64,000 bases of DNA, from assembly GCA_963745035.1 (NCBI GenBank), contig CAVUVW010000021.1, positions 192,001-256,000 of the forward strand, given 5' to 3'. A program made the position numbers and the translations under genes. The number at the start of each line of letters is the position of its first letter. Positions within the stretch are counted from its first letter, which is position 1. The stretch comes from an uncultured delta proteobacterium (GTDB lineage Bacteria > Desulfobacterota > Binatia > UBA9968). This document shows, piece by piece, positions 11,438 to 15,467 of the stretch. The notes beneath the pieces were generated by a model. That model was not told the DNA's origin. It did no database searches and saw only the letters and a program-made list of their open reading frames with translations.

Positions 11438-12186
11438 ATGCTCAACGCCACTCGTGTTCTGGTTGTGGTGACGCCGATCTTGTTAGCGGCGGGTTCGTCC
11501 GCGCTATGTGCGGCCGAACCGCGGAGCCGTGTCGCCGGCGGCGTGCCGGTTGCCGAAGTGCTGGCCAGCGTCAGCGGCACCGTGAGCGTCGCAGGGAATC
11601 ATCAACGCGCGAAGCCGCTGCCGGTTTTCAAAAACCGGTCATTCTGCGGCGCGCAAGTGCCGAACGAAACTTTGCTGGTCGGACGACACGGCGGTTTGCG
11701 AAACGCTGTTCTTACGTTCCATCCTCTCCATAGGAAGGCTGCCGCGCAGCCCATGAAGCTGGTCCTAGACAATAAACAATGCGCATTCGCGCCGCACGTG
11801 CAGGTCGCCGCCTTGGGTAGTGATTTGCTGCTCAAGAATAGCGATCCGATTCTTCACACCGTGCACGCGCGCCTGGGCAAAGAGACTTTGTTCAATGTCG
11901 GCTTGCCGAGATGGCGCCAAGTTACAAAACGGCTGGACCGGGTCGGCGTCATCAGAATCGACTGCGATGTCCTCCATACATGGATGAGCGCTGTCATCAT
12001 CGTTACCCGGACTCCATACTTTGCGATTAGCGACGAAGATGGAAAATTCATCGATCGATCAGTTGCCTGCCGGCCCATACCAAGTGGAAATCTGGCATGA
12101 AAAGCTCGGTATGAAGTCGATGAGGATGGCGGTGGATGGTGACACTATCACTCGACGTCGTCTACGCTCTGAACGGAAAATCTTAA
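11438..12186 (+). CDS. exported cupredoxin-like/carboxypeptidase-regulatory-like domain protein, frameshifted near 12050 and 12150
   Basis: Signal peptide; LDNKQCAFAPHV, NSDPILHTVH, CDVLHTWM, then PAGPYQVEIWHEKLG in a shifted frame. Confidence 0.7.
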
Positions 12187-12259
12187 CAGGTCGCCGTAGT
12201 GCCAGGGCCAGGGCGTCAGCACGATCTAGCCAACATCTTATCTAGATCTCATAAACGTA

Positions 12260-12272
12260 AATCAATAACTTA
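12260..12272 (+). promoter_or_regulatory. IHF binding site consensus
   Basis: AATCAATAACTTA is a perfect match to WATCAANNNNTTR in an AT-rich region. Confidence 0.6.
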
Positions 12273-12296
12273 TAGCCTGCCGTATCTCAATATCTT

Positions 12297-12433
12297 ACAG
12301 CTCTCGATTTTTATTGAACAGCTGTCTTCGAAATTCTCGTAAGCTGTACAAAATTAATAATCAGCTGTTTATCTATTGAATAAGAGCTGATTGGTTGATA
12401 GAAAACAGCTCGTGCATTGATGTTGAGAGCTGT
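12297..12433. repeat. phased array of seven ACAGCTGT-like palindromes (21-22 bp period)
   Basis: AGCT cores at 12299, 12320, 12342, 12363, 12385, 12407, 12428. Confidence 0.9.
12376..12404 (+). promoter_or_regulatory. candidate sigma70 promoter of dndB
   Basis: TTGAAT-N17-TAGAAA lying inside the palindrome array. Confidence 0.4.
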
Positions 12434-12442
12434 GAATAGAGT

Positions 12443-13552
12443 ATGAAACTTACTTTTCCTGTCATAAAGGGAAACATGGGCGGGCGACAGTACTATTCGC
12501 TCCTGGTTCCGCTCTCAGAGATTCCTCATTTATTCAAATTCAACGACTGGACAGGCTGTACTCCCGAATTGCAGGCGCAAAGGGTTCTGAATAAGGCGAG
12601 GGTTCCAGACATCTCAGAATACATACTCGATAATGAGAACGGATACTTGTTCTCGTCGATCACTGCTTCGTATTCGTGTCCGGTAAAGTTCGTTCCATCA
12701 GCAGATAACGCCGAAGTTGGAACTTTAGAGATGGAGCTCGAAAACCTGGAGTTTATCATCAACGATGGCCAGCATCGGTGCGCGGCGATTGCTGCGGCAC
12801 TCAAGGAGAATCCCGCGCTTGGGAAGGAAAAAATCTCGGTGCTTCTCTTTGAGACGGAAAGTTTGGAACGGCTTCAGCAGATGTTCTCGGATTTAAATCG
12901 ATTCGTGCAGCAAACATCAAAATCGTTAGGCATGCTCTATGATCGTCGAGATAATCTTTCTGCGCTCACAATGGAGCTGGCCGACCAGGTCGACGTATTC
13001 CGAGACATGGTGGACAAAGAGAAGGTGACGATTCCGCGGAGGTCCCCCAAACTTTTTACCATCTCCGCTTTATATGAAGCGAACGAAGAATTGCTGGGTA
13101 AAAAAATCGCTGAACAGGGATCATCGGTCTACGCAGAAATTCTCAGCAGGGCTGTCGACTACTGGACGGAGCTTTCGAAGGTCATTGGCGACTGGCAGAA
13201 AGTCAAGAATGGAGAACTTGGCGCTTCCGACCTCCGGCAAGAGAAGATCAATACTCATGCGGTGGTTTTGCGCGCGCTGGGAGGCGTCGGAAGGATTTTG
13301 TTCGAAAAATATCCCGGCAACTGGCGGGAGAAACTCAAGCTCCTAGAACGGCTTGATTGGCGGAAATCCGTGGATGGTAGCGCGAATCCTCTCTGGGATG
13401 CCGTATGCATCACAGCAGGCTCAGTTGTCTCCAATAGGCAGGCGCGAGCAGCTACGTTGGCAGTCTTGTTGAGAGAAATAGGCGAATCGCCAAATGGAAA
13501 AATGGCACACAAGGAATTTGCGGAGGTGACTAGTGCGCAAGCGGCTCAGTAA
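12443..13552 (+). CDS. dndB: DNA sulfur modification protein DndB (DGQHR domain)
   Basis: FPVIKGNMGGRQYY, QAQRVLNKARVPDISEYI, FSSITAS, INDGQHR, QQMFSDLNR, LYDRRD. Confidence 0.92.
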   Translation: MKLTFPVIKGNMGGRQYYSLLVPLSEIPHLFKFNDWTGCTPELQAQRVLNKARVPDISEYILDNENGYLFSSITASYSCPVKFVPSADNAEVGTLEMELENLEFIINDGQHRCAAIAAALKENPALGKEKISVLLFETESLERLQQMFSDLNRFVQQTSKSLGMLYDRRDNLSALTMELADQVDVFRDMVDKEKVTIPRRSPKLFTISALYEANEELLGKKIAEQGSSVYAEILSRAVDYWTELSKVIGDWQKVKNGELGASDLRQEKINTHAVVLRALGGVGRILFEKYPGNWREKLKLLERLDWRKSVDGSANPLWDAVCITAGSVVSNRQARAATLAVLLREIGESPNGKMAHKEFAEVTSAQAAQ

Positions 13553-15467
13553 CGGAAAGCAGCGAAAAAATTCTGCCGTTGCCGATCAGCAGAAGCCTGC
13601 AGGCAGCGTTCAAAGTTCGACCGATGGCGAAATCGCGAGTCCGAGCCCAACCGAAGATTCAACCACAACTCGCCTGCGGCAATTGCTCCCTACTGCATGG
13701 AACATGATTCGACCCTACTGGTCCTCGGAGGATCGATGGGCGGCTTGGGGGCTGGTCGTCGTCGTTATAGGACTCACTCTAGCGATGGTCCACATGAGTG
13801 TTCTGTTTAATCACTGGAACAACGCCTTTTACACCGCTCTGCAGGAGAAGAACCATACAGTTTTTTCCCAGCAGCTGATCGGTCTTTCCTGGCTTGTGGG
13901 TCTGACAATTGTCTTCGCTGTTTATCAGCTTTATCTGAACCAGATGCTCGAGATCCGCTGGCGGCGCTGGCTTACGGAGCGATATCTCCGGGCCTGGCTG
14001 AGCGACGGCGCCTATTATCGGATGCAACTCGTGGCGCATGAAACGGACAATCCCGACCAGCGCATCGCTGAAGACGTTCACCTGCTCATTTCTCATACCC
14101 TGACGCTTGTCATCGGAGGCCTGCGCGCGCTGGTAACTTTGGTTGCCTTTGTGGCGATCCTCTGGGGGCTGTCCGGAACGCTCACCGTTCCGCTTCGCGG
14201 GTGGTTCTCCATTATGCTGCCCGGCTACATGGTATGGGCGGCGATCTTGTACGCGATCGGCGGCACTTGGCTCACCCACTGGATTGGCCGTCCGCTGGTG
14301 CGGCTGAATTATGACAAGCAGCGTTGTGAAGCCGACTTCCGGTTCGGCCTGGTACGCTTCCGGGAGAATACCGAAGGAGTGGCGCTCTACCGGGGCGAAG
14401 CAGATGAACTTCGCGGTTTTCGGCAACGGTTCGAGGCGGTGGCGATGAACTGGTGGGACATCATGCGTCGCCAGAAGCGGCTGACCTACTTCACTTCGGG
14501 CTACCAACAAGCGGCTTGGATTTTTCCATCGCTTGTCGCGGCGCCACGTTACTTCAGCGGCGTTCTTACTCTGGGTGGGCTCATACAAACCATCGGCGCT
14601 TTCAGTGCGGTACAGGCTTCGCTTAGCTTTTTTATCGACTCGTATAAGGTGATCGCTGAATGGTGCGCGGTGGTTGAGCGGCTCTCCGGTTTCGAGCTGG
14701 CGCTTGACCGCGTGCGCATCCAGGCGGAGACTGGCGATGGTGTCCGGCGCATCGACGGAGACGCCACCCATCTGACAGTTGAGGGTGTGGATCTCTATCT
14801 ACCCGATGGTCAGCCGCTTATCGCGGATGTGAATCTCTCGCTCTTGCGTGGAGACACAGTCCTCTTGGGGGGAGCTTCCGGTTCGGGAAAGAGTACGCTG
14901 TTCCGCGCGGTCGCCGGCATCTGGCCGTTTGGGCGTGGCGAGATTCGCGGACCCAGCGGCGCCCAAGTCCTCTTTCTGCCGCAGAAGCCCTACCTGCCGA
15001 TTGACACCCTTCGGCAAGTGGTGAGTTATCCGATGCCGGCGGGTGGGGTGGATGACGTGACAGTGCGCGAGGCTTTGGAGGCCGTGGGACTCCGTGACTT
15101 AGTCGTTCGACTCGACGAAGTTGGCCATTGGGCGCTCCAACTCTCTCCAGGTGAGCAGCAGCGCATCGCCTTCGCGCGAGCGCTGGTTCAGAAACCCGAA
15201 TGGCTCTTTCTCGACGAGGCGACATCGGCGGTTGACGAGACTACAGAGGCACGGCTTTATCGACTGGTGCGCGAACGGCTCGCGGGAACGACGGTATTCA
15301 GTGTGGGCCATCGCGCGACGCTGCGTCCGTTCCATGCTCGCCAGCTTCTGGTGCGGACCAATGGCAACGGGCCCGCCTCCATCGTGGAAGTGACGGCTGT
15401 GCCAGAGTTGGTTCGACGTGGGCCTGGCGTTTCTACGCAGGACGAAACGGTTGCGATGGCTGGATAA
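13533..15467 (+). CDS. ABCD/YddA (BacA-like) fused ABC transporter permease/ATPase
   Basis: WRRWLTERYL, DNPDQRIAED, EADFRFGLVR, GASGSGKST, LSPGEQQR, FLDEATSA; true start uncertain, may lie downstream. Confidence 0.9.
   Translation: MRKRLSNGKQRKNSAVADQQKPAGSVQSSTDGEIASPSPTEDSTTTRLRQLLPTAWNMIRPYWSSEDRWAAWGLVVVVIGLTLAMVHMSVLFNHWNNAFYTALQEKNHTVFSQQLIGLSWLVGLTIVFAVYQLYLNQMLEIRWRRWLTERYLRAWLSDGAYYRMQLVAHETDNPDQRIAEDVHLLISHTLTLVIGGLRALVTLVAFVAILWGLSGTLTVPLRGWFSIMLPGYMVWAAILYAIGGTWLTHWIGRPLVRLNYDKQRCEADFRFGLVRFRENTEGVALYRGEADELRGFRQRFEAVAMNWWDIMRRQKRLTYFTSGYQQAAWIFPSLVAAPRYFSGVLTLGGLIQTIGAFSAVQASLSFFIDSYKVIAEWCAVVERLSGFELALDRVRIQAETGDGVRRIDGDATHLTVEGVDLYLPDGQPLIADVNLSLLRGDTVLLGGASGSGKSTLFRAVAGIWPFGRGEIRGPSGAQVLFLPQKPYLPIDTLRQVVSYPMPAGGVDDVTVREALEAVGLRDLVVRLDEVGHWALQLSPGEQQRIAFARALVQKPEWLFLDEATSAVDETTEARLYRLVRERLAGTTVFSVGHRATLRPFHARQLLVRTNGNGPASIVEVTAVPELVRRGPGVSTQDETVAMAG

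What the first reader, a model, noticed from the sequence alone, without database searches (positions are those of the whole stretch)
12260..12442. Helically phased array of seven ACAGCTGT palindromes plus an IHF site directly upstream of dndB
Seen: AGCT cores at 12299, 12320, 12342, 12363, 12385, 12407 and 12428 (spacings 21, 22, 21, 22, 22, 21 bp). The 8-mers are ACAGCTCT, ACAGCTGT, TAAGCTGT, TCAGCTGT, AGAGCTGA, ACAGCTCG and AGAGCTGT, giving the palindromic consensus ACAGCTGT. Spacers are unrelated and AT-rich (hand count about 34% GC over 12241-12420). Roughly 0.5 AGCT would be expected by chance in this length. The array ends about 10 bp before the dndB ATG, overlaps a candidate TTGAAT-N17-TAGAAA promoter, and follows a perfect IHF consensus (12260-12272). 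Known: DndB is a DNA-binding, nucleotide-responsive repressor of dnd operons, and its DGQHR domain is classed with the ParB/Srx-like fold; a two-turn period places all sites on one helix face, as in iteron and centromere arrays. Inference: this is a cooperative polymerisation platform for DndB dimers, either a multi-site autoregulatory operator or a centromere/loading-site-like element.
Basis: partly seen in the sequence, partly recalled or inferred. Interest (0 to 1): 0.88.

Follow-up and report, generated by a model that had tools for sequence, protein, structure and literature searches.

The report
Conserved phased operator array before DndB-like gene
Seven short palindromic DNA sites, spaced every two helical turns, sit on the promoter of a stand-alone DndB-like gene, and because this layout travels with the gene across many bacterial phyla it is most likely the protein's own multi-site repressor platform.

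Summary
Seven AGCT cores at 21-22 bp spacing end 12 bp before the ATG. This is the only such non-coding chain in the 7.4-Mb genome.

The array is not a local oddity. All five same-genus orthologues keep seven cores while the spacers diverge. An unbiased phased 5-mer test finds arrays of 4 or more sites upstream of 46 of 78 genome relatives (14 named phyla) and 41 of 71 metagenome relatives. Flank controls give 2 of 2671 and 1 of 1428 windows.

The real core is S-AGCT-S with a period of about 22.1 bp, and the arrays straddle the -35/-10. Some lineages keep the phasing but use other cores (GACTC, GATGTC, GTAAACA).

The gene is a solo DndB-family gene. No dndC, dndD or dndE was found, and the downstream genes vary; here it is an SbmA/BacA-type ABC transporter. 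Twelve more distant relatives, including three canonical dndBCDE loci, have no array of 4 or more sites.

Best reading (0.65): a cooperative autoregulatory operator for dimers of the DndB-like protein. Binding has not been shown. The IHF-like site is real but limited to part of the clade.

Earlier scan notes recorded a phased array with a different core, and a methylase-ATPase-DndB cassette, on other DNA.

The parts
12297..12304 (.). core 1, ACAGCTCT (AGCT at 12299)
   Evidence: conserved column in the alignment of 20 Binatia-clade upstreams
12318..12325 (.). core 2, ACAGCTGT (AGCT at 12320)
12340..12347 (.). core 3, TAAGCTGT (AGCT at 12342); A instead of S at -1, a variant shared by part of the clade
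12361..12368 (.). core 4, TCAGCTGT (AGCT at 12363), upstream of the -35-like hexamer
12376..12381 (+). -35-like hexamer TTGAAT (TATTGACAA in most close relatives)
   Evidence: TATTGacAa is conserved; not accepted by the strict consensus scan
12383..12390 (.). core 5, AGAGCTGA (AGCT at 12385), inside the 17-nt promoter spacer
12399..12404 (+). -10-like hexamer TAGAAA
   Evidence: TAga.A conserved; inferred, no mapped transcript start
12405..12412 (.). core 6, ACAGCTCG (AGCT at 12407), at the expected transcription start
   Evidence: position relative to the start is inferred
12426..12433 (.). core 7, AGAGCTGT (AGCT at 12428), in the expected 5' leader, 12 bp before the ATG
12256..12276 (+). upstream block holding the IHF-consensus match (12260-12272); 81% direct repeat of 12281-12301, so possibly a degenerate eighth unit
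12443..13552 (+). solo DndB-family gene (369 aa; DGQHR at 108-112; R265-x6-H272; SVVSNRQAR at 327-335)
   Evidence: Pfam PF14072 2e-102; TIGR03233 331.9 bits against a cut-off of 328; PADLOC DndB
13533..15467 (+). downstream gene in this lineage: fused SbmA/BacA-like membrane domain plus ABC ATPase; its start overlaps the dndB-like stop by 20 nt
   Evidence: conserved downstream of the gene in Binatia-clade loci only

Best explanation
The array is a multi-site operator for the DndB-like protein encoded immediately downstream.

Proposed mechanism:
- Dimers of this ParB/Srx-fold protein, joined through their N-terminal domains, recognise the 6-bp S-AGCT-S cores.
- The cores sit every 22 bp, about two helical turns. 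They therefore lie on roughly one face of the DNA over about 135 bp, from about -110 to +20 relative to the inferred transcription start.
- Neighbouring dimers can then bind cooperatively and cover the -35, the spacer, the -10 and the start site.
- This shuts off the protein's own gene and the translationally coupled downstream gene, here an SbmA/BacA-type ABC transporter.
- By analogy with Salmonella DndB/DptB, nucleotide binding to the ParB/Srx domain is expected to release the repressor.

Gene plus array form a portable self-regulating module. It has moved between phyla and sits in front of different downstream genes.

Shown here: the array, its conservation, its position on the promoter, its absence from canonical dnd operons, and the protein's fold and predicted dimer.
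Inferred: that this protein is the binder, cooperativity, repression and nucleotide control.
For: (1) Uniqueness. This is the only 7-chain of AGCT among 29,494 AGCT in 7.43 Mb.

(2) Conservation of cores only.
- The window plus 5 same-genus orthologues (87-90% aa identity): 6 of 6 keep seven cores at 21-23 bp with diverged spacers.
- In 20 Binatia-clade upstreams the conserved columns are the cores, TATTGACAA and TAGAAA.

(3) Linkage to the gene.
- AGCT chains of 4 or more occur in 47 of 80 genome loci. 46 of the 47 lie within 190 bp upstream of the gene start, and none elsewhere in the loci.
- Unbiased strand-symmetric 5-mer test: 46 of 78 upstreams have a chain of 4 or more, against 2 of 2671 flank windows.
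- Replication set: 41 of 71 against 1 of 1428.
- The 45 positive genome loci carry 14 phylum names, and the protein tree cuts across phyla.

(4) Neighbouring genes change, so the only locus-encoded constant partner is the DndB-like protein.

(5) Per-locus core variants keep the same phasing: GACTC/GAGTC in 6 loci, GATGTC in 2, GTAAACA in 2. S330 and N331 are invariant in 75 of 75 AGCT-array loci. They read TH in the GATGTC loci and NR in the GTAAACA loci.

(6) Promoter overlap.
- 46 of 119 non-Binatia loci have AGCT[CG]TTGAC, with 1-3 cores upstream in 44 of the 45 chains anchored on that core and 0-4 downstream.
- The next core abuts a -10-like element (listing).

(7) Protein.
- DndB family.
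- Foldseek's best matches are ParB, Noc, KorB and Srx, with probability up to 0.99 and E 2.4e-3.
- Homodimer model: score 0.77 against 0.00 for the best of 3 controls. That mark was reached by 20 of 30 proteins solved as pairs of one chain and by 1 of 23 solved as single chains. The runs agree in at least 47% of contacts and pLDDT is at least 76. The interface lies in residues 6-153.

(8) Precedent. Salmonella DndB represses its own promoter through two TACG-N10-CGTA boxes (PMC4507180, passages read).
Against: - No binding data exist for this clade.
- The footprinted Salmonella operator has a different motif and only two boxes.
- Three canonical dndBCDE loci show no array of 4 or more sites, so the analogy crosses a deep split in the family.
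- About a quarter of relatives show no phased chain of 3 or more: 23 of 78 and 16 of 71. This includes whole Verrucomicrobiota and Planctomycetota subclades.
- GACTC-array loci keep the SNRQAR motif, and L047 and L077 also keep AGCT-type cores downstream of the GACTC run. Co-variation between protein and core is therefore incomplete, and it rests on only two independent lineages for residues 330/331.
- The period is 22.1 bp, not 21, so strict one-face alignment needs some DNA untwisting or a helical protein path.
- The window's own promoter hexamers are weak, and no transcript start is mapped.
- The dimer pass may reflect likeness to solved ParB dimers.
- Related loci are kin, and MAG and metagenome sets may overlap, so the counts overstate independence.
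Confidence: 0.65

Rival explanations
1. The cores are methylation targets, not primarily protein-binding sites. A DNA methyltransferase marks S-AGCT-S, and the array acts as an epigenetic switch on the promoter. This could work alone, or by modulating binding of the DndB-like repressor.
For: In 20 of 80 genome loci an N6_N4-type methyltransferase lies beside the gene, and other loci carry N6 methylases. A 4-6 bp palindrome is typical of restriction-modification targets. From recall, CAGCTG is the PvuII site, its methylase belongs to this Pfam family, and GAGCTC is the SacI site.
Against: The arrays persist where no methylase is adjacent, as in the Binatia-clade loci including this window. The S positions are degenerate and mixed within one array. 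Methylation does not need strict 22-bp phasing or placement on -35/-10. The methylase specificity is unknown.
Confidence: 0.12
2. A host factor encoded elsewhere (a global regulator or nucleoid protein, possibly with IHF) binds the array. The DndB-like gene is merely its target.
For: The window holds a perfect IHF consensus at 12260-12272, repeated in 8 of 20 close relatives. The genome encodes three HU/IHF-family proteins. No binding data assign the cores to DndB.
Against: The array travels with the gene through at least 14 phyla and into different neighbourhoods, which a host-specific factor would not follow. It is the only such array in this genome, so the binder would have a one-site regulon. 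Cores switch concertedly per locus. The IHF match is found in only 2 of 64 loci outside the clade.
Confidence: 0.1
3. The array is a centromere-like or clamp-loading site. The ParB-fold protein loads at the repeated sites and spreads or slides, as ParB does at parS or KorB at OB, for partition or long-range silencing rather than simple operator occlusion.
For: ParB, Noc and KorB are the nearest solved folds. An N-domain dimer is predicted. Arrays of phased repeats are typical of plasmid centromeres (recalled). One relative lies on a 15-kb plasmid.
Against: No partition ATPase was seen among the 10 ORFs scanned around the gene. The window lies on a large chromosomal contig (C21; position 433,473 is reached). 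Every array lies on the gene's own promoter, within 190 bp of the start. The cores are 6 bp, not 16-bp parS-type palindromes. On the plasmid the ParA-like AAA ATPase gene is a separate, oppositely oriented gene pair.
Confidence: 0.08
4. The palindromic cores matter as nucleic-acid structure: a cruciform in DNA, or hairpins in the 5' leader RNA that control translation or stability.
For: 12290-12460 folds at -51.1 kcal/mol, z = -4.89 against shuffles. Many non-Binatia loci carry a conserved inverted repeat GAGCGA-N4-TCGCTC in the leader.
Against: Any set of identical palindromes pairs with itself, so the z-score is expected without selection for structure. Spacers show no conservation or pairing pattern. 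Four to five of the seven cores lie upstream of the inferred transcript start. There is no Rfam match below E = 0.79.
Confidence: 0.05

Closest known systems
DndB/DptB autoregulation of dndBCDE in Salmonella enterica Cerro 87 (PMC4507180, passages read)
   Same: Same Pfam/NCBIfam family. The repressor gene is first in its operon and the operator lies on its own promoter. The cores are short 4-bp palindrome-type motifs. The protein is reported to respond to nucleotides (ATP; cited in PMC10853773, passages read; the primary paper, Xia 2019, was not seen).
   Different: The Salmonella operator has two TACG-N10-CGTA boxes rather than 4-8 single cores at 22-bp phase, and a different motif. That protein controls phosphorothioation genes, which are absent here. 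The three canonical dndBCDE loci examined lack arrays of 4 or more sites and form the outgroup on the tree.
ParB-parS, Noc-NBS and KorB-OB (ParB-fold CTP-dependent DNA clamps)
   Same: Nearest solved folds, with a predicted N-terminal-domain homodimer. They recognise palindromic DNA. KorB is also a transcriptional repressor (8qa9 title).
   Different: The structural matches are weak (no E at or below 1e-3; TM 0.2-0.4). Sites here are 6-bp cores in a phased array on one promoter, not 13-16-bp palindromes. No ParA/KorA-type partner was seen. CTP binding was not tested; a DndB-like protein bound ATP and GTP in bioRxiv 10.1101/2025.10.10.680097 (passages read).
Iteron and type Ib/II centromere arrays (R6K or pSC101 iterons, ParR-parC, omega heptads; recalled, not tested)
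   Same: Several sites repeated at one- or two-turn spacing, about 22 bp in many iteron arrays. They support cooperative protein assemblies and often autoregulate the adjacent gene.
   Different: In those arrays the whole 17-22-bp unit is conserved. Here only 6 bp of 22 are, and Tandem Repeats Finder sees no repeat. There is no replication initiator or partition ATPase, and the setting is chromosomal.
C-protein/C-box control of type II restriction-modification systems (recalled; also named in earlier scan note e1-1120012)
   Same: A small portable regulator-plus-operator module sits at the head of a defence cassette. In 20-22 loci the DndB-like gene precedes a large unannotated protein and lies beside a DNA methylase.
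   Different: C proteins are small HTH dimers with two adjacent palindromic boxes. This protein is a 369-aa ParB/Srx-fold protein with 4-8 phased cores. In this window the downstream gene is a transporter, not a restriction system.

Membership tests
DndB (PF14072 / TIGR03233) | Sequence match over the family's curated cut-off | tested here: met
   PF14072 343.2 bits (cut-off 29.1). TIGR03233 331.9 bits (cut-off 328, so only just over). PADLOC DndB 3.2e-105.
DndB (PF14072 / TIGR03233) | DGQHR motif in the ParB/Srx-like domain | tested here: met
   D108-G-Q-H-R112 in the translation, invariant in 43 of 43 aligned relatives.
DndB (PF14072 / TIGR03233) | Genomic linkage to dndC, dndD and dndE (phosphorothioation operon) | tested here: not met
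   The next genes are an ABC transporter, a PIG-L deacetylase and a methyltransferase. There are no TIGR03183, TIGR03185 or PF08870 matches in the 92.6%-complete genome. The PF08870 search rang in no control genome, so that one is weak.
DndB (PF14072 / TIGR03233) | Binds and represses its own promoter; released by ATP | not testable with these tools
   Needs EMSA, footprinting and reporter assays. Only the position of the array on the promoter is shown.
ParB-fold NTP-gated DNA clamps (ParB/Noc/KorB) | ParB/Srx N-terminal fold that dimerises | tested here: inconclusive
   Foldseek top matches are ParB, Noc, KorB and Srx: probability 0.99, but E 2.4e-3 and TM 0.21/0.39. The dimer model scores 0.77 against 0.00 for controls, with the interface in residues 6-153; this may reflect likeness to solved ParB dimers.
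ParB-fold NTP-gated DNA clamps (ParB/Noc/KorB) | Long (13-16 bp) palindromic loading site and a ParA- or KorA-type partner | tested here: not met
   The cores are 6 bp. No such partner was found among the 10 ORFs scanned around the gene; the rest of the window was not scanned.
Iteron / centromere repeat arrays | Whole repeat unit conserved between copies; linked initiator or partition genes | tested here: not met
   Tandem Repeats Finder gives 0 rows. The spacers are unrelated. No linked initiator or partition gene was seen.
IHF binding site | Match to WATCAANNNNTTR, conserved in relatives | tested here: inconclusive
   Perfect match at 12260-12272. The consensus is present in 8 of 20 Binatia-clade upstreams and 2 of 64 others, against a genome background of 152 hits in 7.43 Mb. 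The block is also an 81% direct repeat of the sequence leading into core 1. Binding is not testable here.

The most novel reading that the evidence does not exclude
A distinct clade of solo DndB-like proteins forms a nucleotide-gated nucleoprotein filament or wrapped complex on 4-8 six-bp cores set 22 bp apart. This would be a new kind of ParB-fold transcriptional switch. Its recognition code would be short and re-programmable, with residues 330/331 of the SVVSNRQAR motif tracking the core. It would serve as a horizontally mobile controller placed in front of interchangeable downstream genes: methylase plus GHKL-type ATPase cassettes in many phyla, and a peptide-type ABC transporter in Binatia.
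Probability: 0.35. Interest if true: 0.78.

Novelty: new variant of a known kind. Interest (0 to 1): 0.62.

Why it matters
DndB is the least understood protein of the phosphorothioation system. It has been called a repressor, an NTPase and a possible nuclease (PMC10853773, passages read). Only one operator has been footprinted, and phmmer found no significant match (E at or below 0.001) to any PDB chain sequence.

This work gives a large natural set of cognate protein-DNA pairs: more than 85 arrays of 4 or more sites, with several alternative cores. From these, the DNA target, the geometry (two-turn phasing across the promoter) and candidate specificity residues can be tested directly.

It also shows that a DndB-type gene with its operator circulates independently of dnd genes, as a self-regulated module in front of varied downstream genes. 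That bears on how defence cassettes and other horizontally acquired genes are kept silent until needed.

Tried and rejected
- Tandem Repeats Finder found no repeat; only the cores recur.
- The strict sigma-70 and terminator scan of 12100-12500 found nothing.
- Rfam gave only a miRNA family at E = 0.79.
- The RNA fold has z = -4.89. I rejected it as evidence of structure, because identical palindromes pair trivially.
- The second AGCT chain in the genome (C13:138816) is a coding heptad repeat.
- A second, distant DGQHR paralogue (C14) has no phased array.
- Viral contigs yielded only relatives at or below 40% identity, with no chain of 4 or more.
- The PDB sequence search found no relative.
- Pfam on the C-terminal 200 residues gave only DndB, so the HEPN assignment of Makarova 2013 (PMC3632139) could not be checked beyond the R-x6-H motif.
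- Metatranscriptome contigs of relatives (X16, X17, X18) cover the coding region, and one carries 165 nt upstream of the ATG. Contigs cannot show a transcript start, and X15 covers only the gene's 3' end.
- Columns that discriminate core classes: residues 330/331 looked promising, but GACTC loci do not change them.
- Four literature searches found no description of phased arrays at DndB-type genes. Xia et al. 2019 (Mol Microbiol) is not in the library, and supplements were closed, so an unpublished-looking feature could be described there.

Full report
**Observation.**
- The last core ends 12 bp before the ATG at 12443.
- The stretch 12241-12420 is 33.9% GC, against 57.6% for the window.
- Genome-wide (7.43 Mb, 29,494 AGCT), chains with 20-23 bp spacing number 492 of length 2, 8 of length 3, one of 5 and one of 7, which is this array.
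- The length-2 count matches a random model. Under that model about 5e-7 seven-chains are expected.
- The 5-chain lies in a coiled-coil coding repeat.
- Tandem Repeats Finder sees nothing, because only the cores repeat.

**The gene.** ORF 12443-13552 (369 aa) matches Pfam DndB (2e-102), PADLOC DndB and NCBIfam TIGR03233. The TIGR03233 score of 331.9 bits is barely over the cut-off of 328.
- It carries DGQHR at residues 108-112.
- It is not part of a dnd operon. An SbmA/BacA-plus-ABC transporter gene overlaps its stop by 20 nt, and a PIG-L deacetylase and a methyltransferase follow.
- No DndC, DndD or DndE family match exists in the 92.6%-complete genome. The DndE search had no positive control.
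- Record titles of close relatives name the organism Candidatus Binatia.

**Conservation in close relatives.** Five same-genus genomes hold orthologues at 87-90% identity. One of them, G003, appears as two pieces.
- All six loci have seven cores at 21-23 bp spacing, while the spacers differ.
- In an alignment of 20 Binatia-clade upstream regions, the columns conserved at 90% or more are the cores, TATTGACAA and parts of TAGAAA.
- This places core 5 in the promoter spacer, core 6 at the expected start, core 7 in the leader and cores 1-4 upstream.
- The window's own hexamers (TTGAAT, TAGAAA) fail a strict consensus scan.

**Conservation across phyla.** A scan of one genome per species found 286 relatives. 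The best 80 were kept, at 47-91% identity.
- AGCT chains of 4 or more occur in 47 of the 80 loci. In 46 of them the chain lies within 190 bp upstream of the gene start. One (L082) lies at -531 to -465. None lie elsewhere in the loci.
- I then ran an unbiased test: any strand-symmetric 5-mer, spacing 21-23 bp, in 253-nt windows. Before the count I dropped 3 loci without upstream DNA and 5 loci that duplicate the same genomes.
- Result: 55 of 78 upstreams have a chain of 3 or more and 46 of 78 have 4 or more. Flank windows give 37 and 2 of 2671.
- A metagenome set of 80 loci, with 9 dropped for having under 200 bp upstream, replicates this: 55 and 41 of 71, against 15 and 1 of 1428.
- The 45 positive genome loci carry 14 phylum names, and the protein tree cuts across phyla.
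- Caveats: the loci are kin, MAGs and metagenomes may overlap, and gene starts are taken from tblastn alignments.

**Anatomy of the array.** From 128 sites in 22 non-Binatia loci:
- Position -1 is G in 92 sites, C in 35, T in 1 and A in 0. Position +4 is C in 93 and G in 35. The core is therefore S-AGCT-S.
- Spacings are 22 bp (65 intervals), 23 (26), 21 (10), 20 (4) and 24 (1), with a mean of 22.1.
- In 46 of 119 non-Binatia loci a core directly abuts a -35 hexamer (AGCT[CG]TTGAC). In 44 of the 45 chains anchored on that core, 1-3 further cores lie upstream, and 0-4 lie downstream.
- The next core abuts a -10-like element (listing).
- Some loci keep the phasing and the promoter arrangement but use other cores: GACTC/GAGTC (L047, L077, L161, L168, L170, L171), GATGTC (L032, L139), GTAAACA (L078, L084) and AGGTC (L033, L149).

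**Limits of the clade.**
- Three canonical dndBCDE plasmid loci (37-42% identity) and nine viral-contig relatives (40% or less) show no chain of 4 or more.
- A 48%-identical solo gene on a Neorhizobium plasmid, followed by CopG and N6 methylases, does have the array.
- On the tree, the 76 array-clade proteins separate from canonical DndB by a fully supported long branch.
- Verrucomicrobiota and Planctomycetota subclades show no array. They do share a leader inverted repeat.

**Downstream genes.** The transporter follows the gene only in Binatia-clade loci.
- In 22 loci a protein of about 790 aa without a Pfam family follows the gene. In 20 loci an N6_N4 methylase lies alongside.
- Atlas neighbours of that large protein partly carry HATPase_c_3, in 26-30% of members. 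This is a lead only.
- Other loci have a 104-117-aa ORF, an Eco57I-like methylase or a Schlafen AlbA_2 protein.

**The protein.**
- The AlphaFold2 model has a mean pLDDT of 79.3.
- Foldseek's best PDB matches are ParB, Noc, KorB, Srx and PadC, with probability up to 0.99. No match has E at or below 1e-3.
- There is no PDB relative by sequence.
- A homodimer is predicted with score 0.77, against 0.00 for the best of 3 controls. That mark was reached by 20 of 30 proteins solved as pairs of one chain and 1 of 23 solved as single chains. The runs agree in at least 47% of contacts, and pLDDT is at least 76. The interface lies in residues 6-153. Likeness to solved ParB dimers may explain the pass.
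- S330 and N331 (motif SVVSNRQAR) are invariant in 75 of 75 AGCT-array loci. They read TH in the two GATGTC loci and NR in the two GTAAACA loci. GACTC loci keep SN.
- R265-x6-H272 fits the HEPN motif that Makarova et al. assign to DndB (PMC3632139 passage).

**Interpretation.** The array is under selection, is tied to this gene whatever its host or neighbours, sits on the promoter, and is the only one in the genome.
- The simplest binder is the protein encoded in the locus. That protein belongs to a family whose Salmonella member represses its own promoter through short palindromic boxes (PMC4507180).
- I therefore read the array as a cooperative, two-turn-phased autoregulatory operator for DndB-like dimers, with confidence 0.65.
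- Rivals are methylation targets (0.12), an unlinked host factor with IHF (0.10), a centromere or clamp-loading site (0.08) and nucleic-acid structure (0.05).

**The IHF-like site.**
- The consensus match is real and recurs in 8 of 20 close relatives, but in only 2 of 64 others.
- Three HU/IHF-family genes exist in the genome.
- The block is also an 81% direct repeat of the sequence running into core 1.

**Novelty.** Four full-text searches, and passages of PMC4507180, PMC6186775, PMC10853773, PMC11662687, PMC12345140, PMC8569181, PMC3632139 and bioRxiv 10.1101/2025.10.10.680097, describe no phased array at DndB-type genes.
- Xia 2019 and all supplements were not seen.
- Two earlier scan notes bear on this. 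e1-2252649 records a solo DndB-like gene with a phased GTACGTAC array on other DNA. e1-1120012 records a methylase-GHKL ATPase-DndB cassette.
- I class this finding as a new variant of a known kind.

Noticed in passing
L058, L062, L073, L070, L083, L087, L088, L090 (leader regions 20-90 bp upstream of the dndB-like ATG): A conserved inverted repeat, GAGCGA-N4-TCGCTC (often GTGAGCGATGTTCGCTCTGAAGCGG), sits in the 5' leader of many non-Binatia relatives. This includes the Verrucomicrobiota and Planctomycetota subclades that show no phased array. In some loci one AGCT core forms its loop.
   Followed up: partly
L022-L038, L041-L043, L055, L080 (downstream of the dndB-like gene): A recurrent three-gene cassette: the DndB-like gene, a protein of about 790 aa with no Pfam family (Atlas neighbours partly HATPase_c_3), and an N6_N4 DNA methyltransferase of about 390 aa. 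It looks like an unnamed restriction-modification-like system and matches earlier scan note e1-1120012.
   Followed up: partly
window 13533-13552: The GTG start of the SbmA/BacA-ABC transporter ORF overlaps the end of the dndB-like ORF by 20 nt, which suggests translational coupling. The pairing is limited to Binatia-clade loci.
   Followed up: partly
window 12256-12276 and 12281-12301: A direct repeat of 21 nt (81% identical, 25 bp apart). The first copy holds the IHF-consensus match and the second runs into core 1, so the 'IHF site' may be a decayed eighth repeat unit.
   Followed up: partly
G000:C13:138816-138903: Five AGCTC at an exact 21-bp spacing inside a coding region. They come from a heptad-repeat coiled coil (QL/KL/EL every 7 codons) and are a false positive for phased-motif scans.
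   Followed up: yes
G000:C14:498229-498615 (minus strand): A second, distant DGQHR/DndB-family paralogue (PF14072, 38.8 bits; 376-aa open frame) with no phased array upstream.
   Followed up: partly
L006/L009 (G003:C2:117704-118806) and L051: The orthologue in one same-genus genome matches in two overlapping pieces (residues 1-212 and 200-368). It is probably frameshifted or mis-assembled, yet its upstream array is intact.
   Followed up: no
window 12443-13552, residues 265-272 and 327-335: R265-x6-H272 fits the HEPN RNase motif. The near-invariant SVVSNRQAR motif changes only in lineages whose array cores differ, which makes it a candidate DNA-reading element.
   Followed up: partly
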